Made by a program: the position numbers and the translations under genes. Below the pieces are notes generated by a model, which worked only from the letters and a program-made list of their open reading frames with translations, searched no databases and had not been told where the DNA came from. From Candidatus Saccharimonadota bacterium (GTDB lineage Bacteria; Bacteroidota; Bacteroidia; Cytophagales; Amoebophilaceae), in contig NZ_CP022339.1 in assembly GCF_003351905.1 (NCBI RefSeq), positions 90,001 to 122,000 on the forward strand: a DNA stretch of 32,000 nt, given 5' to 3'. Below, in pieces: positions 4,052-25,913 of this stretch (position 1 is its first letter; each line of letters opens with the position of its first letter).

Positions 4052-6145
4052 ATGACCTATGATGATGCTTCTAAAATCTACGTAAGCAATCGTAAGGACA
4101 CTATTGTTTGTTCCAGTTGTATCGCTTCTTTGGTTCAAAAGTTGTTCTCTACAATTTTTTTCATTGTACTATGTCGCAGTTGTCTGTTATACATTGTAGG
4201 CTTCAGCTGTAACTGCAACAATAGTGATGCAACCTCTGCGGCTGATATTACTCCATCACGACATCATGTGACCCAACCCCACTGTTTAGGCACTGTAACT
4301 ACGTTGGGCACAAATGACCCAATTGGCTATATTATAGAAGAGCGTCGCCTACTTGATCCAAAAAGTAAATGGAAGCAAGACCAACTAAAAAGCACCCCAA
4401 AAGTAATATTCCATCTGCATGATCAGGAATCCATCGCGCTCCCTGATGGTGCAGTGCCCAATTGGCAAGCGTATGGGATAGCGCCCTTTATGTTTTGTCA
4501 GATCAAAAGTTTAGGCGATAAACATATTGTTGCTTTGGATTTGAATGGCGCTAAATTTCAAAATGGTGAACAATTGGGTTTTATATTCGTGAAAAATAAC
4601 CGAACGCTAGTTGATGTGATGCAGCATTTGATAGGGTGTCCTGATCAATCCTATGCCTGTAGGCAGATCAAAGATGGTTTGATCCTCCCTGGCGTTGTCA
4701 GCGGATATCTATTGCAATCTGAATCTATTTTAAATAGATCTATAGATTTAAATAGTTATTCGAATGGCTATTGCTATATTAAAAAAGGTGATCATTACTG
4801 TTTTATTCCCTTAAAAAATAGCGTTCCTGAAGTTAAACTAGTACAGCCAGTAGCTGGTTCATCGTATAACAGCATACTCCCAACAAACATACAACCATCA
4901 TTATTAGAAAATAGGATAGATGCACCGCCTGTACGTCCTTTATTTTTAAAAAATGACGCGCCATCGGCTGCCTTATCTATGGTTCATGAGGAAGCTGTTA
5001 CAGATAGGTCTATGCAAACGAATGATATAGAATCCGCTCCGCTCAACCTATTAGGAGGTGTAGGTGGCGGTCTGTATAGTGATAAGGCAGCGCACAATAA
5101 TGGTTTATCCGAAGCCATGCGCGCAGAAAAAATCATCCAGATGAAGCAAAAAGCCTTGAATAAGATAGTAAAAAAGATAGCAACCTATACCATCATCCAC
5201 GAGCAAGTTATAAAAACCATACAAAAAATAAATTTAGACAAGGTCGTATTAAATGATATAGTGCAAAACCACTTTAAACCAAATGTTGGCAGCACGTTAC
5301 AATTGGTGTTCAATCCGGTATTGCAAGCGATAAGCCAATTGCAAGCTGCATTGATATTAGAAAAAAGTTGCCAACTCGGTATAGAATATAGTAGGCCCAC
5401 CTATCTTAGCGATCAATGCAGTGCACTAATAAAACAATTAAGAAATTTAGAAGTAGCTATATGTGAGGAATATTTCGAAATCTTATCTACAGAAATCTTA
5501 CTGCATCAGGTAATAGAATTTTTCGAAAGTATGTATGATTTACTCCTTTACATCAGACGCTTATACATTCTGAATCCAACAGATCGCATGCGGCAATGTG
5601 TCAAACAATTGTACATTGAAGATGATAGGCAATCCAAAACGGCGCAAGTCATCATAGAACAGCTAGAAAAACTAGAAGATGAGCAACTCAGTATGGTCCG
5701 AGAGGTAAGAAAAATAGCCTCAAAAAGAGCAGGAACACTAGTAGCGATACAAGATGCCGTCACCTTAGTACGTAATCCATTGGAAAATGCAATACATACC
5801 ATACGCGCATTAGATTTAAGAATCAAGCTGAGGCTAAACTTAAACGTTATAGTAGGGAAGGTGAAAAACCTTAAGCGCCTCAAAGAGATTATAGCAGATT
5901 TAGACTTAGCCAAGGAGTATATATGCGCCATACGAGTGCGTGTACATGATCCCACTTTAAAGATACTAAAAGCAGCCATAGCAAAACAGATACAAACAGC
6001 CACAAATGAGGCATTAAAGCTAGCAAATAAACTTGAAACAAATTTGCGATCAAAAACAAATAGTATGGTCGATCAGGAAAAAGTACTTAAAACACTATTG
6101 CCAACAATAGATGCCTGTGATGATGCTGGGTATGAAGCAGCATAA
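4052..6145 (+). CDS. Hypothetical protein, probable lipoprotein with a long C-terminal helical/coiled-coil half
   Basis: 697-aa ORF. The N-terminus has a hydrophobic stretch ending in a lipobox-like IVGFSC. The C-terminal roughly 350 aa are rich in heptad-like L/I/K/E/Q. No recognisable catalytic motif. Antisense ORFs inside it are shadows. Confidence 0.6.
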   Translation: MTYDDASKIYVSNRKDTIVCSSCIASLVQKLFSTIFFIVLCRSCLLYIVGFSCNCNNSDATSAADITPSRHHVTQPHCLGTVTTLGTNDPIGYIIEERRLLDPKSKWKQDQLKSTPKVIFHLHDQESIALPDGAVPNWQAYGIAPFMFCQIKSLGDKHIVALDLNGAKFQNGEQLGFIFVKNNRTLVDVMQHLIGCPDQSYACRQIKDGLILPGVVSGYLLQSESILNRSIDLNSYSNGYCYIKKGDHYCFIPLKNSVPEVKLVQPVAGSSYNSILPTNIQPSLLENRIDAPPVRPLFLKNDAPSAALSMVHEEAVTDRSMQTNDIESAPLNLLGGVGGGLYSDKAAHNNGLSEAMRAEKIIQMKQKALNKIVKKIATYTIIHEQVIKTIQKINLDKVVLNDIVQNHFKPNVGSTLQLVFNPVLQAISQLQAALILEKSCQLGIEYSRPTYLSDQCSALIKQLRNLEVAICEEYFEILSTEILLHQVIEFFESMYDLLLYIRRLYILNPTDRMRQCVKQLYIEDDRQSKTAQVIIEQLEKLEDEQLSMVREVRKIASKRAGTLVAIQDAVTLVRNPLENAIHTIRALDLRIKLRLNLNVIVGKVKNLKRLKEIIADLDLAKEYICAIRVRVHDPTLKILKAAIAKQIQTATNEALKLANKLETNLRSKTNSMVDQEKVLKTLLPTIDACDDAGYEAA

Positions 6146-8098: not shown

Positions 8099-11000
8099 AT
8101 GATCTGTTTGAATATGTCCCTATTTATAGTGGCTGCTTTTTTATTATTAACCTTAATAGTAGGTGGCTACTTTAGTAGAAAAAAAACCACCTTTCGAGAA
8201 TATGCAGTGGGGCATAAACAGTTTGCGACGGCTACTTTGGTAGCTACCGTATTGGCTACTTTTTTTCAAGGGGGTGGGTTGGTACGTAATATAGAATGTG
8301 TCTATGATCTTGGCTTGTGGTTTACAGTTATTTTGCTTTTGGTGCCTCTTGGCATGTGGAGCACTAGCAGATTTGCATTGCGTATGGGGCCATTTATGCA
8401 ACACCTCTCTCTGGCAGAAACAATAGGTAGTATTTATGGTACGTATGCAAAGGTTATCACTGTTTTGGTTAGCATTTGTTGTAATATCCTCCTAATTACT
8501 TCTCAAATCGTCATTGTCTCCCAAACTATTGGCATTTGTGTAACTTTAGATAACCCTTATGTAATTCCTGTTCTTTCCACCTCAATCCTTATTTTTTATT
8601 CTACCTTTGGGGGGGGCCGCGCGGTTACCTTGACAGATGTGTTCCAATTTATCACTTTTTCCATTGTTATTCCTTTGCTTTGTTGGTTTGCCTTTGCAAA
8701 AATAGGAAAACCAGTTGCAACCATTGTTCCTATACTACAGAGTCACACTAAGTTTCAGTTTACCCACTTATTTCACTCTAATAACCAGCTAATTCATATA
8801 GTACTACTGTTGTTAGCTGATATACCGAGTAGTATAGTAGCTTCTCCTCTTACGCAACGGGTCTATATGGCTGCTAGTCCTATTCAAGCCCAAAAAGTTT
8901 TTTCGTATGCTGCTATTTTTAGTTTTATTATTCAGGTTTTTATAGTTTTAATTGGTCTATTTATTTTTGTCGGGGCATCAAACTTACCCAAAGTAGAAAT
9001 TTGGCCCTATATAATGGGCCATATCCCTCCTCTTTTTAAAGGATTTGTTGCCAGTATACTCGCTATGGTGATGTCTACTGCTGATTCTTGCTTAAATACT
9101 TGTGCGGTTATGGTCAGCCATGATATAGCAAAAAGCCTAATAAAACAAAAAAAGATTAGTGATTCCACTCAGCTTAAAATAGCCAGGTGGACTACACTAA
9201 CGGTGGGCCTATTATCTATGGTCATAACTTTTAAGTATAATGATTTGTTAAAATTAATGTATTGGGGCCTTAACTGTCGGGTACCTATACTAACCGCTCC
9301 TTTTATTTTAGCTGTTTTTGGTTTTCGGGGTACTCCTCGAACGGCTTTAGTAGGTATGACTACAGGTGCATGCACTATTTTAGCGTGGAACAAATGGATT
9401 AAACCTGCAATAGAGATAGATGGTTCTTTTATGGCTATGGTGGCCAATGGATTAGCGATGCTAGCGGCCCATTATCTACTGAAGCAGCCAAAAAGTGCTG
9501 GGTGGGTGAAACCAGATCATGAGTTTAAACAAGTACAACAAGCCCATGCGCGCAATAGAGCGGAGCGAAGGGAGATGATTAAAAATGGTTGGGCCAATAG
9601 AAAATCCACTTTGTCTAAGCTGATACCTAGTGATGCTGCCTTACGTTTAACAGGGCTTTATGTGGTCATTACGGCTATTCTAGGTTATTGGTTTATTAGG
9701 CCAGATCATATCTATTGGGCGATATGTCAAGGCCTTGTGGGTGCCCTGCTTACATCTTCTAAAACCTTTTTTAGCAGCGCAATTCCCGCCTGGTGTATTG
9801 GTTTGGGCTGGCTTATAGGGTTAGTGGTTTATCTGCCTCTGAGTCTGCTTGGACACTGGTGGTATCTTGTAGATCCGATCTTTACCGCATCTTTGTCTTT
9901 GGCCCATTGTGCTGTAATCCTATGGGTTTTGCCACTCCATCTGGGCATAGGGGTTGTTACCACTACCTTATTAATAGCCATTTATCCTATGGCTATTGGA
10001 TTGACTTTGCCAGTATTGTCTGCTTTATTTCCGCTGTTCATAGCAGGCTTAGTGGTATTTGCTATGGCTATTTACTTTAAGGTAAAGGTACGCAATTACA
10101 CCACTCAAATTCTTTACTTAAAAGATCAAGAAGGGATTAGAGAAGCACAACAACTGAAAGCCTCTCTTTATGATTCGGGTACGGTTCCTGCTACTATAGT
10201 TAATAAGTCTAAGGGTTATGGCGCTATTTTAACACAAGTAGTCGGTAAGATTGAAGAATCTATTTCTTTTTTAGATAGCAATGTGCCACTTTATAAGCAA
10301 GATTTTCAGAGTATTATTAATAAATTGTATGATTGGGTGGCCTATTTTAATAGAAGAGAAAGGGCCAAAAAACATGCCCTGCTGCAGCCTACTAAAATTA
10401 CTTTAGATAAACTGATACGTAAGGTAGAATTGGCGTTAGGCCAAGAGGTAGCGCATCCGCCTAGGTTGTTGATAGAAAAGATAAACGATTCCAATGGAGC
10501 GCCATCTCCGCATATGGTATGTGATATCAATCAAATTGCCTATTTACTGGTGCAGGCTGTGTTACGTGTTGGTAAACGAGCGGGTACATCAATTGTTCAT
10601 ATACGTTTCCATAATACTGCTTTACAGTTTAAGCAAGCCGATGCTATTGACAACAGCTATCCTCTATCCATGCTTTTTCAAGCTACTGCCCTGGTAGTCA
10701 GTCAGGCTACTACTCTCCCTGAAGTGATGGTCAAAGTAAAACCTGTCTATGATGATGAGATAGATATGATGGGCCATCAAGGAAAACAGGACACACCACC
10801 CTCTATAGATCTTCAACAGGAAACCATATCCAGTATTGTGGGGGGGCATTATGGCCATTTAGAAATCTTCGATGGCGAGCAGCAGCCAGCTATGCTACTG
10901 GTATTGCCTAGTAATGTCACTGATATTCTTAGTAAAATAACGATTAACTTACCTCTAGATGAGTTAACCTTAGAGACCCCTGTCACCCCTAAGGAACAAG

Positions 11001-11644
11001 CCGATTCCATGATGGCATTAATGCAGTTCCATGATCATGTTAGTAGATCTTCTCATCGAGCGGATCCTATTGATATAGGTATTATTTCAGGGTTGCTTTT
11101 ATTGCTGCGGCAGCATTTTGGCTTTAAGCGACATGCTTCGGGTCAATTGTTTTATGTACGTGCGGTAGGTATTGCGGAAATAGTCGTAAAATGGGTATTT
11201 CACTCTCCTAAGGTGATTTATGCTGCTTTGCTCTATGAGTTGGTGCGTCGTACCTGTTTGCCGCTTTCTTATGTCAAGGAACATTATAATTTAGGCGTAT
11301 ATGCTTTTGTATTGAATGTAGTAGGCATAGATAAACGGCAAGCATTGGATCATCCTTCTTTGCTGTATGTGCAAAATCGATTGCAAGAAGCAATTAAGGA
11401 GGAACATGTACAGCTTTCCGTTCTTTTTATCAAACTAGCCGAGCGGCTCTATGACCTACGTCATGCAGCAGGTTATAGCCATCTCTCAGAAGTACAACAT
11501 ATGGCGCAAGAAACCCTGACCATAGATGTGGAGTTAGCCAATGCCTACTTGGGCCCAGAGATAGGCGTGGCACTAGAAAAAGCAGCCAAACAGGCATTAG
11601 AACTGGGCAAACATAGACGAAAGGATCAAGATAATGAGCTATGA
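8099..11644 (+). CDS. SSS-family transporter domain fused to an extra TM block, a degenerate histidine-kinase-like module and a degenerate RelA/SpoT-type HD domain
   Basis: 1181 aa (alternative start at the ATG at 8114, MSLFIV). SSS motifs: FREYAVG, YSTFGGGRAVTLTDVFQ, AMVMSTADSCLNTCAVMVSHDI. A second TM cluster lies at about 9640-10080. HK-like tail: VCDINQIAYLLVQAVLRVGKRAG ... ISSIVGGHYGHLEIFDGEQQPAMLLVLP. SpoT-like region: HASGQLFYVRAVGIAEIV..AALLYELVRRT..FIKLAERLYDLRH..AQETLTIDVELANAYLG. Confidence 0.8.
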   Translation: MICLNMSLFIVAAFLLLTLIVGGYFSRKKTTFREYAVGHKQFATATLVATVLATFFQGGGLVRNIECVYDLGLWFTVILLLVPLGMWSTSRFALRMGPFMQHLSLAETIGSIYGTYAKVITVLVSICCNILLITSQIVIVSQTIGICVTLDNPYVIPVLSTSILIFYSTFGGGRAVTLTDVFQFITFSIVIPLLCWFAFAKIGKPVATIVPILQSHTKFQFTHLFHSNNQLIHIVLLLLADIPSSIVASPLTQRVYMAASPIQAQKVFSYAAIFSFIIQVFIVLIGLFIFVGASNLPKVEIWPYIMGHIPPLFKGFVASILAMVMSTADSCLNTCAVMVSHDIAKSLIKQKKISDSTQLKIARWTTLTVGLLSMVITFKYNDLLKLMYWGLNCRVPILTAPFILAVFGFRGTPRTALVGMTTGACTILAWNKWIKPAIEIDGSFMAMVANGLAMLAAHYLLKQPKSAGWVKPDHEFKQVQQAHARNRAERREMIKNGWANRKSTLSKLIPSDAALRLTGLYVVITAILGYWFIRPDHIYWAICQGLVGALLTSSKTFFSSAIPAWCIGLGWLIGLVVYLPLSLLGHWWYLVDPIFTASLSLAHCAVILWVLPLHLGIGVVTTTLLIAIYPMAIGLTLPVLSALFPLFIAGLVVFAMAIYFKVKVRNYTTQILYLKDQEGIREAQQLKASLYDSGTVPATIVNKSKGYGAILTQVVGKIEESISFLDSNVPLYKQDFQSIINKLYDWVAYFNRRERAKKHALLQPTKITLDKLIRKVELALGQEVAHPPRLLIEKINDSNGAPSPHMVCDINQIAYLLVQAVLRVGKRAGTSIVHIRFHNTALQFKQADAIDNSYPLSMLFQATALVVSQATTLPEVMVKVKPVYDDEIDMMGHQGKQDTPPSIDLQQETISSIVGGHYGHLEIFDGEQQPAMLLVLPSNVTDILSKITINLPLDELTLETPVTPKEQADSMMALMQFHDHVSRSSHRADPIDIGIISGLLLLLRQHFGFKRHASGQLFYVRAVGIAEIVVKWVFHSPKVIYAALLYELVRRTCLPLSYVKEHYNLGVYAFVLNVVGIDKRQALDHPSLLYVQNRLQEAIKEEHVQLSVLFIKLAERLYDLRHAAGYSHLSEVQHMAQETLTIDVELANAYLGPEIGVALEKAAKQALELGKHRRKDQDNEL

Positions 11645-17516: not shown

Positions 17517-18374
17517 ATGAACATGTTAAGGAGCTCTTTGTTGCTTTGTTTTTTTACACTGTTTTTCTTATCCGGATGTAGATGGCTACGCCGTGGTTCG
17601 AAATTCGAGCTATTAAAACTTGATAAAACAGAGACTGCACCAGTGTCATTAGAACCTGACAAAACAGAGCCCGCACCAGTGCCATTAAAACCTGAGCAAA
17701 CAAAGACCGCATCAGTACCATTAAAACCTGACAAAACAGAGGGCATTCCACGTGTAAATGCGCATCATCAACAACAAAAGCCAGTTGATCCAAAGCAGCC
17801 ATCTGATCATCCTTCTACCTATTTTCCTATGCATCAGGAAGCCGGTCCCAATAATATGCTACAGCAGAAGGTTGAGCAGATAATAAAGCAGAAGAAGCAT
17901 CAAGAGGAGTTGACCTATAAGCAAAAAGAGGAGTTGCTCAATCAAGCATATGAGCAGGCAAAGCAGGAGTTGGAGGAGAATAAAAAACAGATGCAAGGTA
18001 AGTTGGGGGAGCAGGAACAGGCGTATGAGAAGGTATGTAAGGAGGTAGACGACCTGACGGAGCAAGAGGAGAAAAAGAAGAAGGAATTGGATAAGTTGAA
18101 TAATATCAACAGGCAGAAGCAGTCGAAGAATATGAATAAGCGGAAGAAGAAGTTGCAGAAGAAGCAGAAAGATGAACAGCAGGAAAAGGTGGAGGAGCTG
18201 TCTACGGAAATAAAGAAGCTGCAGGGAGATAAAAAAGACAAAGAGCAGGAGTCGGGGAAGCTGCGTGATGAAATAAACAAGCTGAACGACCAGATGAAGG
18301 ATCTGGAACAAGAATTGAACAATCTGGACCAAGAGCGGGAGGAGATAAAGCAAATGATAGCGAATGAGGCATGA
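17517..18374 (+). CDS. Lipoprotein with a 12-aa tandem repeat region and a K/E/Q-rich coiled-coil tail
   Basis: Signal peptide plus lipobox: MNMLRSSLLLCFFTLFFLSGC. Repeats: LDKTETAPVSLE/PDKTEPAPVPLK/PEQTKTASVPLK/PDKTEG. The rest is highly charged and low-complexity (KKQMQGKLGEQEQAYEK...). Confidence 0.7.
   Translation: MNMLRSSLLLCFFTLFFLSGCRWLRRGSKFELLKLDKTETAPVSLEPDKTEPAPVPLKPEQTKTASVPLKPDKTEGIPRVNAHHQQQKPVDPKQPSDHPSTYFPMHQEAGPNNMLQQKVEQIIKQKKHQEELTYKQKEELLNQAYEQAKQELEENKKQMQGKLGEQEQAYEKVCKEVDDLTEQEEKKKKELDKLNNINRQKQSKNMNKRKKKLQKKQKDEQQEKVEELSTEIKKLQGDKKDKEQESGKLRDEINKLNDQMKDLEQELNNLDQEREEIKQMIANEA
17616..17744 (+). repeat. 36-bp tandem repeat, about 3.6 copies, in-frame inside the lipoprotein gene
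   Basis: Units: aaacttgataaaacagagactgcaccagtgtcatta / gaacctgacaaaacagagcccgcaccagtgccatta / aaacctgagcaaacaaagaccgcatcagtaccatta / aaacctgacaaaacagagggc. Confidence 0.85.
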
Positions 18375-19296: not shown

Positions 19297-21312
19297 TCAT
19301 TTTCCCTGTATATAACTTTCCTCAATGTTTTTCATTTTTTTTGGTAAGACAGTCATATTTATAGGTACCCGCTCACTCCATATAAGTTCATTTTTATATT
19401 GCATCCAATAACTAATATATACGTTGTCACACTTAACAGGCTCATCAGCCTTACGAGGATTAACTTTCTGGTATAGACGATGTAAATAATTCTCTAGATT
19501 CTCTTTTTCAACCTCCTCTTTAAAGATTAATACGACCTTCTCTTTATTTTTATTCTCGTTGATTAGATATAGATTCTTCTTACTATGCTCAGTTATATAC
19601 TTACTGATATCTTCCTTTATATTTGTATCGTCTATAAATACTATAAAACCTCGATGTCTGCGCGCATCTATATCAAACCCACTAGGTGTTATATGAACGG
19701 TAGGAAGTTTATAAAAAACATCATCTGGCTCAAAAAACCCAGTTTTGATGATCGTAACATGCGTTTTTGTATGGTCTAATGTTATCTTTGGCTTATCCGG
19801 CTTTGCTGCTTCCTTTAATTCCGGTTTTGGTGGCTTCGTTTCGTTTACTTCATCTACTTCTATACTTAATGGTTCTCTTTGTCTGTAAAACTTAAGCTTA
19901 TGATCTATAAATAGACAAACCATATATTCGTAATCTGTTCCATGACTAAAAAAGTCGATGCAAGATGAATCAAGTGGTTTCCGTACATCTGTTACAAGAC
20001 AGATGGTGCCATCATCTGTCACACTCGTATTGCTATGGGATCTAGGTGATGCTTCAAATAAAGTTTCCAGCTTATCGGTCCTCCAAATCGTATCTTTTGG
20101 TAAAAAGAATAAAGCTACTTCTGCGTTTGGAGGTAGTGGGGTGACTTGATCATTAACGGTATACTCAATGGTACAATCAGATAATTTTACAGCTCGAACC
20201 TGGCCTGATGCTTGTTCACGGTAAAGCTTTAAATCCAATACTTTTAAACTATGACTATTACCCGTAAAGGTAATAGAAGGCGGGACACTTTCTTGAACCA
20301 ATGGGCTTTCTGTAACATTAGATAGGATATCTCCCATTTGACTCAAATAATAGTGCGGACCTTGAATCAAATAACAAAGTATCTTAAACTTACCCCCTTG
20401 AATAGGGGATTGGCTGTTGCACAATGTACCTATTATCGGAGGATCCATTCTCCTTAACCTACCTGGAATAACAATCATCTCATCATTAAATGATGTAACT
20501 TGAGTAGGCCATTCATCTCCAGAAGTTATGATTTGCTGCACCAAATGATAAGGGTTGATCCCTTCTTTAACTAATAGGAAACCTACTTTTTCATCTTTTG
20601 GGTAAAAATTAGTCAGCCCACCTTTTAAGAACCAACCTGTACCATTTTTTCCCTGGTTTTCAATAGCATCCATAGCTTCCAGTCTGATACCTCGATAATT
20701 TGGCAACGATGGATGCGTTTCTGTGCGATCCATTTGGAAGGGAGTAGTAGAAACTACATAATCTTGGGCAGATGCACCACTTGGTGCATATATCATATGC
20801 ATGGTATATTTTTTTGAGGTTAATTTTTTATAGGTTTCCTCCTCTGCTTGAATCGTCCATTCTATTGGACCCGCACCAACTTTATTGATTTTATTCCAAT
20901 AGATAAAACGATCTTTATCTAGCCATATAAACTTTTCAACCTCATTTTTAACATCCATAGCACTTTTTACTAAGGATAATAGTTCCGTATCGAAGGTAGC
21001 AGGTTCATGGCATGTAGCACCATCTAGACACCCTATAAAGGCTACCTGACCTTTTGATGCAGGCGCTACATTAGAGATATGCCCCTTAAACCGGAAGAAC
21101 CAATCTGTTTTAGCTCCCCCCATACAACTGAGACTGCCTAGTGGCCTACAAAAAGAGCAAGCAACCACTGGCTTATTAGGAAGCGCCGAATCTTGACTAT
21201 CTACAATAGATGCAATAGGAGCCTGCGTACACCGGGGACATCCTCCTCCCCATAGGCTATAAATAAATGATAATGATAAATAACGTAAGTGTTTATGCAA
21301 CATGTTGATCAT
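19297..21312 (-). CDS. Hypothetical 671-aa protein; the Cys-rich N-terminal roughly 100 aa may be PAAR-like (DUF4280-like); C-terminal domains unknown
   Basis: Long uninterrupted ORF, co-oriented with and 110 bp downstream of the 1496-aa ORF. N-terminus: SLWGGGCPRCTQAPIASIV..VVACSFCRPLGSLSCMGGAKTDWFF..VAFIGCLDGATC. K/P-rich linker: ETKPPKPELKEAAKPDKPK. No Walker or other catalytic motif seen. Confidence 0.6.
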   Translation of the reverse strand: MINMLHKHLRYLSLSFIYSLWGGGCPRCTQAPIASIVDSQDSALPNKPVVACSFCRPLGSLSCMGGAKTDWFFRFKGHISNVAPASKGQVAFIGCLDGATCHEPATFDTELLSLVKSAMDVKNEVEKFIWLDKDRFIYWNKINKVGAGPIEWTIQAEEETYKKLTSKKYTMHMIYAPSGASAQDYVVSTTPFQMDRTETHPSLPNYRGIRLEAMDAIENQGKNGTGWFLKGGLTNFYPKDEKVGFLLVKEGINPYHLVQQIITSGDEWPTQVTSFNDEMIVIPGRLRRMDPPIIGTLCNSQSPIQGGKFKILCYLIQGPHYYLSQMGDILSNVTESPLVQESVPPSITFTGNSHSLKVLDLKLYREQASGQVRAVKLSDCTIEYTVNDQVTPLPPNAEVALFFLPKDTIWRTDKLETLFEASPRSHSNTSVTDDGTICLVTDVRKPLDSSCIDFFSHGTDYEYMVCLFIDHKLKFYRQREPLSIEVDEVNETKPPKPELKEAAKPDKPKITLDHTKTHVTIIKTGFFEPDDVFYKLPTVHITPSGFDIDARRHRGFIVFIDDTNIKEDISKYITEHSKKNLYLINENKNKEKVVLIFKEEVEKENLENYLHRLYQKVNPRKADEPVKCDNVYISYWMQYKNELIWSERVPINMTVLPKKMKNIEESYIQGK

Positions 21313-21422: not shown

Positions 21423-24400
21423 CTACTCAGGTATCCAAAATAAAATAATTTCTTCTTGCATCCAAGGTAATTTAAGCTTATTCATAGACCAAGGAGGCAG
21501 TAAATCACCTGTATCGTGGTCCTGATGCATCATCGTTAAATGCCAAAATTTTTTCTCTGTAGTGTCATCAGCTTGGTGGCTGGTTAAAATACCTAATCTA
21601 TTTAAGAAATAGTCTTTTACTATCCTTTCCAGGGTAGCGTTTTGAAATGCATCGGTTTCTTGCAGTTTTGTTATGCTTTTCCAACGCTTTAGGACTTTTT
21701 CCATAAGCAGTTGGCTATTGGCTGATAGGATTGCCATTGTGTTACTAGATGTGGATGTTTCTGTTTCTATTTCTATTTTTGATGTAGTCCCGTCTTGGGA
21801 CGCTTGGAGCTGTTGGTCTGACGTAGTGCCCTTTTCTTCTACTTGATCATATATATCCTCCGTTTCATCTATAGGCTTATAGGGTAGCAATACTGCATCA
21901 TAAGATAATCCACAAAGTAGTTTAGGAAGGGTAAGCTGCCATTCGGGACTCTTTAGCTTACCTGTAACCAAATATTGTAAGAGATAGACTGCATTATGGG
22001 CTGCTTGGTCACAGAAAAATTGGTCGTCAACCATAAGATTGTTTAACTTGAAAAAATCATACAAAAAGGGCCATAGAAATACCAAGCCTGTATTTTTTGT
22101 ATATACCTGAACCGATGCTTCTGGTAGACGAACTTTTTGAGGTGATGTTTTTAGTGGCGCTTTTTCTAATGACTGATGGACTAAAGCTGACTGGGATGGG
22201 TGCATGTGCTTAATTAATGGCTTAAGTAAGGTGATCAGCTGATCTGCTTCCTGGTTCGTAGCCTTTGTATCGACAATTGAGGTAATGATTTTGTAAATAG
22301 TTCCTTGAGTATAGCAAGTGGTCAGTAAGGTACTGTGTACAAACTCTTGGGCTGCAAATGACTTTTTTGAAATTAAATAATGCATAATAGAAATGCAGAG
22401 TTCCTTTTTCCATGTGGATGGATGATGGAAGGGTATAGTTGTATCTAGCAATGGATGGTTTAAAAGAGTTAGGTAGTGCATGACAAATGGAGCGTTGTCT
22501 TTTGCTAAACAGGTTATAATTTTTGTAGTCACTTCTTCGCTAAAATAGTGGACTATGCGCCTGGCTGTTACTTGATGATTGTCCTGATCTGCTAGAAGTT
22601 TTGGTAATTCAAGTGGTTGGTCTTCCATAAATTGAATCAACTCATCGCCTAATCGCTCTATTGTTAGATGATACTGCTGGGCAAAAAGAGATAAGTTGCC
22701 ATTAAGCAGTAGATAAAGCTTGATTAAGATAGGTGCGTGGTATCCACGCTGCCTAGCTTGTTGTTGGAATACTTGACTATATTTTTCTTGTAGCCTGTTC
22801 AATGAAGCAGTTAACGTTTCTGGTATCTCCTTGGTATCAAGTAGTTGAAAAGTTGTTAGTAGGGTAGTTGGTGTAACTTCCAGTACGTTACTCAATTCAG
22901 TAGTAAGGTCCGCAAGCCAATCATCTGGTGCAATAGATGTCTGAGGTAGTGTTTTTAATACACCATCCCAAAATAAATTTTTAGTCATATTTTGCTCGCC
23001 TAGTGCACCTTGTGTGTCACACCACCATTGATAGCTCCCTTGTATGAAGGTTGTTAACGTTTTACCTATTGCACTATGTCTTTGAATCAATTGCATCAGT
23101 TGCGTATGGGTAAAATTTGCGATAAGGCGTTGCCGCACATGTGCTTTATCTTGGGCTAAAGAAAAAGTAGAAAGGTGTGTGAGCACATCACTTAACAAGG
23201 CTGTTGCATCTGTATAATTTCCAAGCTTACCCGTATGCAAAAAGAGGTGCCATCTTTCTATAATCCTCTTTTTTTTGCCTAGTATCACATCGGCAATCTG
23301 TTTGTAGAGCGTGATGCGCATCGTTTCCTGTAATGGTAGGTTGGGTAAGTGTTGTGCAACCAATTGGTCGATGATGGAGGGAGATAGCTCAACAGATTGG
23401 CGTACCATCTCTTTAATAGCTGGTAGTAGCCTACTATAGTAAAGTGGTACAAGAGCTTGGTCTAATGTTTCATGTGTAGATAGAAACATTAGATCCACTT
23501 CATCTATTTTAGTTAGTTTTAATGGCGTTAACTTCTCTTTGAGGAAAGAAAAAATCTCTACCAGCTGGTAATCGGTTTCCTCTCTGGCTGCATCAATTAA
23601 CGCATCACATAAACGGGTTGGGGGAGATGCAGTTTGTGCGCTCAGATGGAATACGATACGCTCTATATATTGTTTTTCTGGTGGAGTTTCTCTAATTGCG
23701 GCAGCAATAAAAATTTCTTTAATGGAACGGATATGGCCCTGTTGCTGGGTGCGCTGCAACACTTGCATCATGACCCTTTCTAGGCGATCCAGCATCTGAT
23801 GGGAACAAGGGACAAAGGCCTGCAATAGTTTGGCTACAGTGATCTCTGTAGCATGTTGCATGAGCTTTTTTAAAATGGTTGCTTCTTGGCACCAAGGTGC
23901 TAATTGATCTCTTATCTGTTTGGGTGTGGCACGCTCCAAACACTTAGCTATGAAGTAGGCTGGCACCAACTGATCATTTGGCAATACATTATCAACAAGA
24001 AAATCCACTACATCTGCCAATGGATGGTTATGGGTACCATCTAAACGAGTGGTGTGCTGCTTGGTTTGCGATGCGTCAACCGGTTTTGATGTGCTATAGG
24101 TTTGTACTATATAGCTCTCTTGGTCTACTTTAGGTGACACACGCGCCAAACATGCTGCTAGATCTGGATAGGCTTTCTGTTCTGCTATATCAGATAGTCG
24201 GTCACATAATGCGTCAGCAGATAAGGAGGTATAAGGCGCTAGATAACCTATCACACGTCCTATATATTGCCTAGTAGATGGCGCATCCACGGCTGCTGTA
24301 ATAAACATATTTTTGAGATGGTCTATGTTTGCTTGGCATTCAGTAGATTCAAGGAATGCAATCAGAACGGTTTCGAGTTTAGGTAGCCACTCCATTGAAA

Positions 24401-25913
24401 GAGGAATGGATGCTGGCAAGCTGTGCTGTATGATAGGCGGCTGCATAGCCGCTTTGTTATTTGCATCAGGCATAACAGGCCAAAGGCACGTGGTCTCCTT
24501 GGGCATCTCTGATGATAAGGTCGATATGGATACCAGTGGGGCTATTATAGCTTTTATAGCTGGGTTATAGGTTTGAGTAGTTAGCAATTTGGCGCATTGT
24601 TGCGGGCTGATTACACCATTGGCCATATGTGTTCTAAACAACGCGTGCATCTCTTCAAGATAAAATGTTTTAGAATGTTCAAAGGCACAATAGGCTAAAG
24701 TCATAGCTTTAATCGCACAAGCAGGTGTGGTGGCAGCAGTAGTAGCCGTTGCGATTTGCATACAATCAGAAAATATACCTACAATAGAAGGATCTATAGA
24801 GGCTAAGCAGGCAACAAAGAGCCTATCAGGTAAGTTTTGAACCAACTTTTCCCTATTTTTTGCTTCCTGCAGCCAGCTTTTTACTAGAGGTCGTATACCT
24901 GTTCGGTCCATTGCCCGTTTCATACTACCTATAGCGGCTGATAGTTGATGGGGCGCCATGCCATTATTGGCTATTTTGTCCAATTCTTTTACTATTTGTT
25001 CCTTATTTTTGATACTTTCATACCCGAATTTTAGTGGCGTTATCGCTAGGTCACGCAACTGAAGCACCAATGCTTTCGTAGTGGAGTCAAATGAGGGTTT
25101 TTTTTCATTTTGTGCGTAATAAATCTGTAATGCTTCTAGCATTTTTTCGTAGCTGGTAGAGGTTTGTAGGGCGACTTGCTTGAGGAGCATGCGCAAAAAA
25201 CCCATTCGGTCTACTTTGCCTCTTGGTTGGTTGATGATACTCAATAGAGTCGTTGCAAACAATTGCTTCGTATCTAACAAGTTGGTTGCAACCCTCTTTT
25301 GTTGTAACAATATTCCTATTTCAGTTAGGATAGGCTTAAAGTAAGCTATAGGTTGTTTCAATAAGCAGGAAAGAGTTCGCTCTACAGTAGACCGAGCAAA
25401 AAATGTCATACAACGTTGGACAGCTTTTTCCTTTTTATGCAGATCATACCAAAGCTGTTCTATAAGCAGAGGCGTGTAGTGCAGCAATTCTAGATATATT
25501 TTTTCAATTTGTTTTTCAGAACGTTCGATCATCCACCACGCCAAATGACCTTCTGATAAATAGTGTGCTATGGCTTGCCGTTTTGCCTCTGGTAGTGGGA
25601 TTACTGCAGTAGGGTTATGGATGACCTTACGCATCTGTTCTTGTAATTTAAGCATTAACACCTGTTCTACCTGACAAGGGAGTTGTTTGTCAAGGGTAGA
25701 TAGATATACGTCACCTCCATCTATAACCAGCTTGTCTAAATGGATGACTACATCACTAGGCACATATTGAGCAAAGAGTTTGGATAAAATGGGTATAATT
25801 CGTTTTTGGACAGCTTGCTGAACGGTGTGATAGAGCATGCTATTTTGACTATGCTGATCAATAGTTACTTCAATCCGACTACGTAGAATGACATGATGAT
25901 TTTTTGTAGGCAT
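21423..25913 (-). CDS. Giant helical protein resembling contractile-injection-system tape measure proteins (Afp14/Pvc14-like)
   Basis: 1496-aa ORF. N-terminus: HHVILRSRIEVTIDQ..IIPILSKLFAQYVPSDVVIHLDKLVIDGGDV. C-terminus: RLGILT..WHLTMM..DLLPPWSMNKLKLPWMQEEIILFW. Both match my recollection of the conserved termini of this family. Internal repeated helical modules are present. Family assignment is from memory and was not computed. Confidence 0.55.
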   Translation of the reverse strand: MPTKNHHVILRSRIEVTIDQHSQNSMLYHTVQQAVQKRIIPILSKLFAQYVPSDVVIHLDKLVIDGGDVYLSTLDKQLPCQVEQVLMLKLQEQMRKVIHNPTAVIPLPEAKRQAIAHYLSEGHLAWWMIERSEKQIEKIYLELLHYTPLLIEQLWYDLHKKEKAVQRCMTFFARSTVERTLSCLLKQPIAYFKPILTEIGILLQQKRVATNLLDTKQLFATTLLSIINQPRGKVDRMGFLRMLLKQVALQTSTSYEKMLEALQIYYAQNEKKPSFDSTTKALVLQLRDLAITPLKFGYESIKNKEQIVKELDKIANNGMAPHQLSAAIGSMKRAMDRTGIRPLVKSWLQEAKNREKLVQNLPDRLFVACLASIDPSIVGIFSDCMQIATATTAATTPACAIKAMTLAYCAFEHSKTFYLEEMHALFRTHMANGVISPQQCAKLLTTQTYNPAIKAIIAPLVSISTLSSEMPKETTCLWPVMPDANNKAAMQPPIIQHSLPASIPLSMEWLPKLETVLIAFLESTECQANIDHLKNMFITAAVDAPSTRQYIGRVIGYLAPYTSLSADALCDRLSDIAEQKAYPDLAACLARVSPKVDQESYIVQTYSTSKPVDASQTKQHTTRLDGTHNHPLADVVDFLVDNVLPNDQLVPAYFIAKCLERATPKQIRDQLAPWCQEATILKKLMQHATEITVAKLLQAFVPCSHQMLDRLERVMMQVLQRTQQQGHIRSIKEIFIAAAIRETPPEKQYIERIVFHLSAQTASPPTRLCDALIDAAREETDYQLVEIFSFLKEKLTPLKLTKIDEVDLMFLSTHETLDQALVPLYYSRLLPAIKEMVRQSVELSPSIIDQLVAQHLPNLPLQETMRITLYKQIADVILGKKKRIIERWHLFLHTGKLGNYTDATALLSDVLTHLSTFSLAQDKAHVRQRLIANFTHTQLMQLIQRHSAIGKTLTTFIQGSYQWWCDTQGALGEQNMTKNLFWDGVLKTLPQTSIAPDDWLADLTTELSNVLEVTPTTLLTTFQLLDTKEIPETLTASLNRLQEKYSQVFQQQARQRGYHAPILIKLYLLLNGNLSLFAQQYHLTIERLGDELIQFMEDQPLELPKLLADQDNHQVTARRIVHYFSEEVTTKIITCLAKDNAPFVMHYLTLLNHPLLDTTIPFHHPSTWKKELCISIMHYLISKKSFAAQEFVHSTLLTTCYTQGTIYKIITSIVDTKATNQEADQLITLLKPLIKHMHPSQSALVHQSLEKAPLKTSPQKVRLPEASVQVYTKNTGLVFLWPFLYDFFKLNNLMVDDQFFCDQAAHNAVYLLQYLVTGKLKSPEWQLTLPKLLCGLSYDAVLLPYKPIDETEDIYDQVEEKGTTSDQQLQASQDGTTSKIEIETETSTSSNTMAILSANSQLLMEKVLKRWKSITKLQETDAFQNATLERIVKDYFLNRLGILTSHQADDTTEKKFWHLTMMHQDHDTGDLLPPWSMNKLKLPWMQEEIILFWIPE

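What the first reader, a model, noticed from the sequence alone, without database searches (positions are those of the whole stretch)
21423..25913. 1496-aa ORF has tape-measure-family termini (N-terminal DKLVIDGGD block, C-terminal LPWM block)
The N-terminal roughly 100 aa read HHVILRSRIEVTIDQHSQNS..VQKRIIPILSKLFAQYVPSDVVIHLDKLVIDGGDVYL. This follows a pattern I recall for Afp14/Pvc14-type proteins: H.I..q..el.v......q..v......l.P.l..lFd.l...d..i.iD.LelDlG.i. The last roughly 50 aa read RLGILT..WHLTMM..DLLPPWSMNKLKLPWMQEEIILFW. This follows the recalled C-terminal pattern: G.L.....w.L.v....D.LL..LPW....ikLPWM....V.W. The rest is long, helical and low in Gly/Pro, as expected of a ruler.
Basis: partly seen in the sequence, partly recalled or inferred. 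Interest (0 to 1): 0.7.

Follow-up and report, generated by a model that had tools for sequence, protein, structure and literature searches.

The report
Cardinium injection-system tape measure gene

Summary
The ORF is real: window 21423..25913, minus strand, ATG start, 1496 aa. The quoted terminal strings are present exactly.

It matches Pfam PF19268 (contractile injection system tape measure protein) at E=2.4e-61, 208.9 bits against a cut-off of 27.8. The N-terminal 208 aa alone score E=3.9e-25. The C-terminal 225 aa align with experimentally studied Serratia Afp14 (hhalign E=2e-7; BLASTP E=2e-6).

An exact look-up identifies it as AXI23926.1 / WP_114909686.1. It is annotated "Afp14-like protein" / "contractile injection system tape measure protein" of the Cardinium endosymbiont of Sogatella furcifera. 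It is collinear with Amoebophilus Aasi_1806, the T6SS-iv tape measure, which has been linked to Afp14 since 2010-2012.

- The gene stands alone among housekeeping genes. Scattered CIS genes are known for Cardinium.
- It is about 2.8 times longer than Afp14 (535 aa).
- All length variation among 18 Cardinium-clade orthologues (1255-1800 aa) lies in the N-proximal centre and comes from independent tandem module duplications.
- A conserved Cardinium-only lipoprotein-like gene follows it.
- Published CIS coefficients (0.216-0.229 nm per residue) predict a structure about 320-345 nm long.

Two details did not hold: no NCBIfam model matches, and proline content is not low (5.0%).

The parts
21423..25913 (-). 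Complete CDS of the tape measure protein (1496 aa plus stop). It equals AXI23926.1 / WP_114909686.1 of the Cardinium endosymbiont of Sogatella furcifera.
   Evidence: ORF. PF19268 at E=2.4e-61. Exact-sequence look-up. dN/dS is 0.37 against the 87%-identical orthologue of Cardinium sp. TP.
25356..25898 (-). N-terminal conserved domain (aa 6-186). It holds the HHVILRSRIEV start, the IHLDKLVIDGG motif (aa 57-67, nt 25713-25745) and the AIAHYLSEGHLAWWM motif (aa 114-128).
   Evidence: Scanned alone, it matches PF19268 profile positions 1-185 at E=3.9e-25. The direct hhalign to Afp14 covers only 17 columns.
22134..25583 (-). Central, almost purely alpha-helical region (aa 111-1260). It is the presumed ruler: about 60 short helices with disordered linkers at aa 464-505, 594-628 and 1238-1266.
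   Evidence: AlphaFold2 with DSSP gives 69% helix and 0% strand. All length variation among orthologues maps to the part aligned to aa 1-760.
24126..24458 (-). Internal repeat, copy 1 (aa 486-596).
   Evidence: Self-BLAST: aa 486-596 is similar to aa 676-795, up to 38% identity, E=4e-14.
23529..23888 (-). Internal repeat, copy 2 (aa 676-795).
   Evidence: Same self-BLAST result. The same old duplication is present in P0005, P0006 and P0014.
21879..22103 (-). Most conserved block of the family (aa 1271-1345): YTKNTGLVFLWPFLYDFFK...QAAHNAVYLLQYLVTGKLKSPEWQLTLPKLLCGLSYD.
   Evidence: 39% identity to Afp14 aa 370-444, E=2e-6. hhalign probability 93.6%. Dense run of invariant columns.
21762..21902 (-). 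Acidic, Ser/Thr-rich, poorly conserved linker (aa 1338-1384) between the two C-terminal conserved blocks.
   Evidence: pLDDT is below 50 with no secondary structure. The columns are variable in A1.
21435..21608 (-). C-terminal tail block (aa 1436-1493): FLNRLGILT...WHLTMMHQDHD..LLPPWSMNKLKLPWMQEEIILFW.
   Evidence: Aligns with Afp14 aa 445-528. The family consensus FLQR.G.L..W.L.V..YD.LL..LPWS...IKLPWM...L.VEW is. Two beta strands are predicted.
19297..21312 (-). Downstream gene on the same strand (671 aa, AXI23925.1). It belongs to a Cardinium-only family with a lipoprotein-like N-terminus and is a conserved neighbour of the tape measure gene. Whether it belongs to the system is not shown.
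   Evidence: No family hit. 13 homologues, all Cardinium. The gene pair is kept in L001 and L003. Cys28 is nearly invariant.

Best explanation
[quoted passage not shown] This is the phage-tail-like contractile apparatus thought to form the "microfilament-like" arrays typical of Cardinium cells.

**Shown here**
- Family membership.
- Orthology with Amoebophilus Aasi_1806.
- An intact gene under purifying selection.
- A three-part architecture: a conserved mixed alpha/beta N-terminal domain, a very long helical centre, and a conserved C-terminal domain.

**Inferred from work on Afp14, Alg14 and phage tape measures**
- The C-terminal domain docks in the baseplate/spike hub.
- The helical centre runs through the lumen while tube and sheath polymerise around it.
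- Growth stops when the tube reaches the N-terminal end and the cap binds. The number of residues therefore sets the length.

With the published coefficients of 0.216-0.229 nm per residue, 1496 aa predicts a structure about 320-345 nm long. This is far longer than extracellular systems (about 110-120 nm with about 530 aa). It is in the range of the 420 nm Aureispira T6SS-iv.

The gene is transcribed away from the other structural genes, which are scattered in Cardinium genomes.
For: - **Family membership:** PF19268 at E=2.4e-61 over the whole protein. The N-terminal domain alone gives E=3.9e-25.
- **Afp14 homology:** BLASTP E=2e-6 and 0.011, collinear. hhalign gives probability 93.6%, E=2e-7, for aa 1272-1493 against Afp14 aa 368-528.
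- **Afp14 itself:** it is in the same Pfam family (E=1.9e-49). It is named a tape measure in pADAP, next to the afp15 ATPase.
- **Aasi_1806:** collinear match, E=3e-61 and 7e-36. Aasi_1806 was identified through.
- **Existing annotation:** "Afp14-like protein".
- **Orthologues:** 18 orthologues, all carrying PF19268.
- **Selection:** dN/dS is 0.37 overall and 0.29-0.34 at the termini.
- **Helical centre:** with beta elements only at the ends. This is the layout described for eCIS tape measures in bioRxiv 10.64898/2026.05.27.728243.
- **Ruler function in relatives:**
  - Alg14 duplications and deletions change AlgoCIS length as predicted.
  - Afp14 is cited as the length regulator.
  - Aureispira T6SS-iv has a uniform 420 +/- 8 nm length and is lost on IS insertion into cis14.
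- **Cardinium context:**
  - 16 AFP-like genes lie in five regions, including the Afp14 homologue CAHE_0118 (PMC3486910).
  - The Afp-like system is compared across seven Amoebophilaceae genomes, including cSfur (PMC6387759).
  - The arrays are equated with T6SS-iv (PMC12342168).
Against: - No sheath, tube, baseplate or cap gene lies within the 32-kb window. Association with the machine therefore rests on homology and on literature for other strains.
- No solved structure exists for any member of this family. The docking and lumen steps are inferred.
- The AlphaFold models show many short helices (mean 14.5 aa) packed as bundles, not one long rod, and confidence is moderate (pLDDT 63-72). How 1496 residues are laid out in a narrow lumen is unknown.
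- The nm-per-residue coefficient was derived from ~500-aa proteins and may not extrapolate.
- In AlgoCIS the tape measure was not detected in mature particles.
- No length measurement for Cardinium or Amoebophilus structures could be retrieved.
Confidence: 0.85

Rival explanations
1. The protein is a required assembly scaffold or initiator of tube-sheath polymerisation. It does not set the length. Length would be set by the cap protein, by subunit supply or by cell geometry, as in classical T6SS.
For: - Classical T6SS length follows cell width and Hcp supply (PMC6450956; PMC5924787).
- The predicted helices are short and bundle-like.
- IS disruption of cis14 in Aureispira abolishes the system altogether, which shows an assembly role but does not by itself show a ruler role.
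Against: - Classical T6SS lack this family entirely.
- Engineered lengthening and shortening of Alg14 shifts particle length as predicted.
- Aureispira T6SS-iv has a uniform length.
- The conserved-ends, expandable-centre architecture is what a ruler needs.
Confidence: 0.08
2. Besides or instead of measuring, the long central region is cargo. The protein sits in the tube lumen, is expelled into the host cell on contraction and acts there as an effector. The strain-specific module duplications would then reflect host adaptation.
For: - Phage tape measures are ejected through the tube (PMC5924787).
- A tape-measure-related CIS effector is reported in Streptomyces davawensis (PMC11126660, title and abstract).
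- Cardinium AFP-like loci lack the known toxin genes (PMC3486910).
- The centre evolves fastest (dN/dS 0.50 in aa 481-630) and by recent duplications (96-99% identical copies in P0007 and P0008).
Against: - No enzymatic or eukaryote-like domain was found in the centre.
- There is no structural similarity to any effector.
- dN/dS stays below 1 everywhere.
- Duplication of helical modules is exactly how a ruler would change length.
Confidence: 0.05
3. The gene is a stranded relic. It was separated from the rest of the system by IS-driven rearrangement and is decaying.
For: - The gene is isolated among housekeeping genes.
- IS copies lie nearby in this and other strains.
- The genome is undergoing reduction.
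Against: - The reading frame of 1496 codons is uninterrupted.
- Full-length orthologues exist in every Cardinium lineage found.
- There are many invariant residues.
- dN/dS is 0.37.
- The scattered arrangement is the conserved norm in Amoebophilaceae (PMC3486910, PMC6387759).
Confidence: 0.02

Closest known systems
Aasi_1806 of Candidatus Amoebophilus asiaticus 5a2 (T6SS-iv tape measure, 1561-1569 aa) and its Cardinium hertigii cEper1 counterpart CAHE_0118
   Same: - Collinear similarity over both the N-terminal (aa 7-424) and C-terminal (aa 635-1495) parts.
- Same size class and the same Pfam family.
- Also encoded away from the main structural gene cluster (PMC3486910 Table S5).
   Different: - Only about 24-25% identity.
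- The central region (about aa 430-630) is not alignable.
- cSfur carries its own old internal duplication (aa 486-596 and 676-795).
Afp14 of Serratia entomophila pADAP (535 aa), the experimentally studied length regulator of the antifeeding prophage
   Same: - Same Pfam family PF19268.
- Homologous C-terminal domain (aa 1272-1493 against Afp14 aa 368-528).
- Shared N-terminal IH(L/I)xKLV(I/L)xxG motif.
   Different: - The Cardinium protein is 2.8 times longer because of a roughly 1000-residue helical centre.
- It is not followed by an AAA ATPase gene, nor preceded by baseplate or fibre genes, as afp14 is.
- The system is cytoplasmic and membrane-anchored rather than released.
Alg14 of Algoriphagus machipongonensis AlgoCIS (526 aa) and cis14 of Aureispira T6SS-iv
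   Same: - Same three-part layout: mixed alpha/beta ends and a helical centre.
- Alg14 was shown to act as a ruler by duplication and deletion of central helices.
- Aureispira cis14 goes with a uniform 420 nm T6SS-iv.
   Different: - Sequences of these two were not available for direct comparison here.
- Alg14 is one third the size.
Phage tail tape measure proteins (for example T4 gp29, lambda gpH)
   Same: Analogous role and a helical central region. Published tables list Afp14 as the gp29 counterpart (PMC6899500).
   Different: No detectable sequence similarity here: no PHROG family matches. No muralytic or other accessory domains.

Membership tests
Pfam PF19268 CIS_TMP (Afp14 / Pvc14 / Cis14 tape measure family) | Whole-protein score above the curated gathering threshold. 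| tested here: met
   208.9 bits against a cut-off of 27.8, E=2.4e-61.
Pfam PF19268 CIS_TMP (Afp14 / Pvc14 / Cis14 tape measure family) | N-terminal domain with the H.I..Q..E start, the ID.LEIDLG motif and the YFL.TG.LPWW motif. | tested here: met
   The N-terminal 208 aa alone give E=3.9e-25 against profile positions 1-185. The motifs align with 12 ordinary family members. The pairwise match to Afp14 itself is weak (17 columns).
Pfam PF19268 CIS_TMP (Afp14 / Pvc14 / Cis14 tape measure family) | C-terminal domain: hydrophobic GLVLLWPFL...LLQYLV.G...LNKLLCG block followed by FLQR.G...LPWS...IKLPWM...VEW at the very C-terminus. | tested here: met
   BLASTP against Afp14 gives E=2e-6 and 0.011. 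hhalign gives E=2e-7. 4829 clusters match, and among the 150 best listed the match nearly always ends at the hit's C-terminus. Consensus. The last 118 aa alone are only E=0.061.
Pfam PF19268 CIS_TMP (Afp14 / Pvc14 / Cis14 tape measure family) | Central region almost exclusively alpha-helical. | tested here: met
   AlphaFold2 with DSSP: 69% helix and no strand in aa 111-1260. This is a prediction of moderate confidence.
Pfam PF19268 CIS_TMP (Afp14 / Pvc14 / Cis14 tape measure family) | Encoded within or next to a CIS structural gene cluster (sheath, tube, baseplate, AAA ATPase, cap). | tested here: not met
   No such gene lies in the 32-kb window. This is a usual but not defining feature. Scattered loci are documented for Cardinium and Amoebophilus (PMC3486910). 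Distant Amoebophilaceae relatives keep the tape measure and AAA ATPase gene pair.
Pfam PF19268 CIS_TMP (Afp14 / Pvc14 / Cis14 tape measure family) | The protein determines tube and sheath length. | not testable with these tools
   Needs in situ length measurements or genetics. The host is an unculturable endosymbiont.
T6SS-iv tape measure of Amoebophilaceae (Aasi_1806 orthologue group) | Full-length collinear similarity to Aasi_1806, and the >1200-aa size class. | tested here: met
   (E=3e-61 and 7e-36). Identity of Aasi_1806. Orthologue lengths are 1255-1800 aa.
T6SS-iv tape measure of Amoebophilaceae (Aasi_1806 orthologue group) | The same genome encodes the other T6SS-iv components. | not tested
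   Only this window was available. The literature reports the Afp-like system in all seven Amoebophilaceae genomes compared, including cSfur (PMC6387759 Fig. 3).
   No NCBIfam family at E<=0.01. No NCBIfam model accounts for the RefSeq name; PF19268 carries the same description.
Phage tail tape measure proteins | Sequence match to a phage tape measure family. | tested here: not met
   No PHROG hit at E<=0.01.

The most novel reading that the evidence does not exclude
Cardinium strains may form a natural length series for testing the ruler mechanism in a membrane-anchored contractile system.

- Their tape measures range from 1255 to 1800 aa.
- The ends are of near-constant length. The part aligned to cSfur aa 741-1496 is 739-793 aa in all 18 orthologues.
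- The length differences come from independent tandem duplications of ~100-200-aa helical modules, some very recent (96-99% identical copies).

If the ruler model holds, the characteristic "microfilament" arrays should differ in length between strains in steps of about 25-45 nm per module, spanning roughly 270-410 nm. A further possibility is that the conserved downstream lipoprotein-like gene is an unrecognised Cardinium-specific partner of the system.
Probability: 0.4. Interest if true: 0.45.

Novelty: already known. Interest (0 to 1): 0.2.

Why it matters
The tape measure is the component that would fix the length, and hence the reach and cargo volume, of the contractile injection apparatus. 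Cardinium, a widespread reproductive manipulator of arthropods, is thought to use this apparatus to deliver proteins into host cells.

The identification adds nothing new for this genome, because the gene is already annotated as such. Modest added value comes from three comparative observations:
- This clade carries tape measures about three times longer than those of extracellular systems.
- Their length evolves by module duplication while the ends stay fixed.
- A lineage-specific lipoprotein-like gene travels with the tape measure gene.

These give concrete, testable predictions for cryo-electron tomography of different Cardinium strains.

Tried and rejected
- **PDB by sequence:** searches with the protein, with an 18-sequence profile and with Afp14 itself found no solved relative.
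- **PDB by fold:** Foldseek with both AlphaFold half-models found nothing at E<=0.001. The only hits were generic alpha-solenoids such as Pumilio, with TM-scores of 0.28 or less. I do not read these as homology.
- **PHROGs:** no phage tape measure match.
- **N-terminal profile comparison with Afp14:** only 17 aligned columns, probability 6%. The N-terminal relation therefore rests on the Pfam profile and the multi-sequence alignment, not on the pairwise comparison.
- **Genome-contig scan:** run with the single protein, it returned only one close locus. Contexts were obtained through the look-up of encoding contigs instead.
- **Promoter and terminator scan:** fewer sigma-70-like sites than shuffled controls, and no terminator between the tape measure gene and the downstream gene. 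It is uninformative for a Bacteroidota organism.
- **Bock et al. 2017 (PMC6485382):** could not be read, so no measured Amoebophilus sheath length is cited.
- **tRNA scan:** none in the window.
- **Pseudogene, effector-only and chance-motif readings:** considered and ranked low (see rivals).

Full report
**1. The observation**

The window holds an uninterrupted ORF at 21423..25913 on the minus strand, 1496 codons with an ATG start. Both quoted strings are present exactly, at aa 6-70 and aa 1439-1493. Composition is Gly 2.3% and Pro 5.0%. "Low Gly" therefore holds and "low Pro" does not. GC content of the gene (40.5%) matches the window (39.2%).

**2. Identity**

- Pfam gives one family, PF19268 "Contractile injection system tape measure protein", at E=2.4e-61 and 208.9 bits against a cut-off of 27.8.
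- Scanned separately, the first 208 aa match profile positions 1-185 at E=3.9e-25. The last 118 aa match positions 388-463 only weakly, at E=0.061.
- NCBIfam has no match, and neither does PHROGs.
- An exact-sequence look-up identifies the protein as AXI23926.1 / WP_114909686.1. It is annotated "Afp14-like protein" and "contractile injection system tape measure protein" of the Cardinium endosymbiont of Sogatella furcifera, on a 1,103,593-bp contig.

**3. Relation to verified and characterised relatives**

- *Afp14.* I took Afp14 from Serratia entomophila pADAP (NC_002523, L008:27620-29227, 535 aa). It is annotated as a tape measure and is followed by the AAA ATPase gene. It hits PF19268 at E=1.9e-49.
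  - BLASTP of the Cardinium protein against it gives two collinear matches. aa 1274-1348 align with Afp14 aa 370-444 (39% identity, E=2e-6). aa 1413-1493 align with Afp14 aa 445-528 (E=0.011).
  - A profile of 18 orthologues against Afp14 gives hhalign probability 93.6% and E=2e-7 over aa 1272-1493.
  - The N-terminal profile aligns to Afp14 only across IHLDKLVID.G / IHITKLVLNLG (17 columns).
- *Wider family.* An alignment with twelve ordinary ~500-aa family members, Afp14 and Aasi_1806 shows three family consensus strings.
  - H.I..Q..E...ID.LEIDLG
  - LE.L.YFL.TG.LPWW
  - FLQR.G.L...W.L.V...YD.LL..LPWS...IKLPWM...L.VEW at the C-terminus
- *Family size.* A search of 1.84 billion representative proteins with aa 1255-1496 finds 4829 clusters at E<=1e-3. 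Among the 150 best listed, the match nearly always ends at the hit's C-terminus.
- *Aasi_1806.* The protein is collinear with Amoebophilus asiaticus Aasi_1806 (1561-1569 aa). The matches are E=3e-61 for aa 635-1495 and E=7e-36 for aa 7-424.
- *Prior literature.* Penz et al. 2012 list Aasi_1806, CAHE_0118 and Afp14 as counterparts. They report 16 AFP-like genes in five regions of the C. hertigii genome (PMC3486910). Siozios et al. 2019 compare the Afp-like system in seven Amoebophilaceae genomes, including cSfur (PMC6387759). A 2025 review equates the system (T6SS-iv) with the microfilament-like arrays that characterise Cardinium (PMC12342168).

**4. Anatomy**

- *Secondary structure.* AlphaFold2 models of aa 1-760 (pLDDT 72) and aa 741-1496 (pLDDT 63) were built with the 18-sequence alignment. 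They give 63% helix overall. In aa 111-1260 they give 69% helix and no strand, as 64 helices averaging 14.5 residues.
- *Strands and linkers.* Strands occur only at aa 55-57, 104-106, 1267-1271 and 1439-1463. Low-confidence linkers lie at aa 464-505, 594-628, 1238-1266 and 1338-1384.
- *Comparison with eCIS.* This mixed-ends, helical-centre layout is the one described for eCIS tape measures (bioRxiv 10.64898/2026.05.27.728243).
- *Solved structures.* Neither half resembles any solved structure. No family member has been solved.
- *Internal repeat.* aa 486-596 resembles aa 676-795, with up to 38% identity and E=4e-14.
- *Selection.* Against the 87%-identical orthologue of Cardinium sp. TP, dN/dS is 0.37 overall. 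It is 0.29-0.34 at the termini and 0.50 in aa 481-630. The gene is under purifying selection.

**5. Comparative picture**

- *Orthologues.* All 18 are from Cardinium or related Amoebophilaceae and measure 1255-1800 aa.
- *Where length varies.* The part aligned to cSfur aa 741-1496 is 739-793 aa in all of them. The part aligned to aa 1-760 ranges from 514 to 1053 aa.
- *How length varies.* Self-comparisons show independent tandem duplications.
  - cBtQ1: 96% identical copies (aa 426-617 and 630-822).
  - One C. hertigii genome: three ~206-aa units at 99% identity.
  - A second C. hertigii genome: 81% identical copies.
  - The Tipula strain: a different ~104-aa module at 62% identity.
- *Size classes.* In the representative search, the nearest full-length hits are about 950-1650 aa. 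More distant ones are mostly 440-750 aa, the size of Afp14.

The Amoebophilaceae clade therefore has tape measures about three times the usual length, and their centre expands by module duplication.

**6. Surroundings**

- *Rest of the window.* It is housekeeping:
  - dnaE fragment
  - glutathione peroxidase
  - two sodium:solute symporter-family proteins
  - a class I aminoacyl-tRNA synthetase (read as valS)
  - a HemN-like radical SAM protein
  - an ABC transporter
  - YcgN
  - 3-methyladenine glycosylase
  - a YhcG nuclease
  - IS110-like and IS256-like transposases
- *What is absent.* There are no tRNA genes. No sheath, tube, baseplate, cap or AAA gene is present.
- *Downstream gene.* 110 nt downstream on the same strand lies a 671-aa gene (19297..21312).
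  - It has no family hit.
  - It belongs to a family found only in Cardinium.
  - It has a hydrophobic N-terminus and a nearly invariant cysteine, which suggests a lipoprotein.
  - The gene pair is kept in Cardinium sp. TP and cBtQ1.
- *Other contexts.* In two more distant Amoebophilaceae contigs the tape measure gene is followed by a double-AAA ATPase, the afp14-afp15 order. In other Cardinium strains the gene is flanked by IS copies.

**7. Mechanism**

- *Shown.* Family membership, orthology, an intact gene under purifying selection, and the architecture.
- *Inferred from relatives.*
  - The C-terminal domain anchors in the baseplate hub.
  - The helical centre occupies the tube lumen during polymerisation.
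  - The N-terminal end marks where capping stops growth.
- *Support from relatives.*
  - Engineered duplications and deletions in Alg14 shift AlgoCIS length as predicted: 0.229 nm per residue, with a cross-system slope of 0.2156.
  - Afp14 is cited as the length regulator.
  - Aureispira T6SS-iv has a uniform 420 +/- 8 nm length and is lost when IS elements insert into cis14.
- *Prediction.* Applying the coefficients gives 322-343 nm for cSfur, and 270-412 nm across the 1255-1800-aa range. This extrapolation is untested.

**8. Verdict**

The added comparative points are modest leads rather than a discovery. They are the long-ruler clade, length change by module duplication with fixed ends, and the conserved lipoprotein-like neighbour.

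Noticed in passing
window 19297..21312 (-): A 671-aa gene lies 110 nt downstream of the tape measure gene. It belongs to a Cardinium-only orphan family (13 homologues). It has no Pfam, NCBIfam or PHROG hit. Its hydrophobic N-terminus is followed by a nearly invariant Cys (probable lipoprotein). The tape measure + this gene pair is conserved in Cardinium sp. TP and cBtQ1, and homologues of both lie on contigs of matching length in several C. hertigii assemblies.
   Followed up: partly
P0007 (cBtQ1), P0008 and P0011 (C. hertigii), P0017 (Tipula Cardinium); loci L003, L004: Tape measure orthologues differ by independent tandem duplications of ~100-200-aa helical modules. Some copies are 96-99% identical, giving lengths of 1255-1800 aa while the C-terminal ~755 aa keep a constant length. 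The near-identical copies could also be assembly artefacts.
   Followed up: partly
L005 11268-12641 and L006 8727-10100: In distant Amoebophilaceae metagenome contigs the tape measure gene is directly followed by a 457-aa double-AAA ATPase (PF07724/PF00004). This is the afp14-afp15 order of pADAP. The linkage is absent in the Cardinium loci examined.
   Followed up: partly
L002 and L004; window 29282..30019 (+) and 30436..31674 (-): The tape measure genes of the Oedothorax and Tipula Cardinium strains are flanked by transposase genes. The window carries IS110-family and IS256-family (Mutator) transposase genes 3.4-5.8 kb upstream of the gene. This fits IS-driven scattering of the system's genes.
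   Followed up: no
window 4052..6145 (+): A 697-aa ORF with no significant hit in Pfam or PHROGs. It is another uncharacterised protein in an otherwise housekeeping stretch.
   Followed up: no
window 17517..18374 (+), with antisense ORFs at 17859..18353 and 17942..18322: A 285-aa protein with a signal/lipobox-like N-terminus (FLSGC) followed by a Lys/Glu-rich coiled-coil region. The overlapping antisense ORFs are Leu/Phe-rich low-complexity translations and look like artefacts of the repetitive coding strand.
   Followed up: no
window 8099..11644 (+): An unusual 1181-aa fusion of a sodium:solute symporter-family domain (aa 101-423) with a C-terminal HD_4 domain (aa 1005-1148). In the Tipula Cardinium locus a separate HD_4 protein lies just upstream of the tape measure gene (L004 7986-9623).
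   Followed up: no
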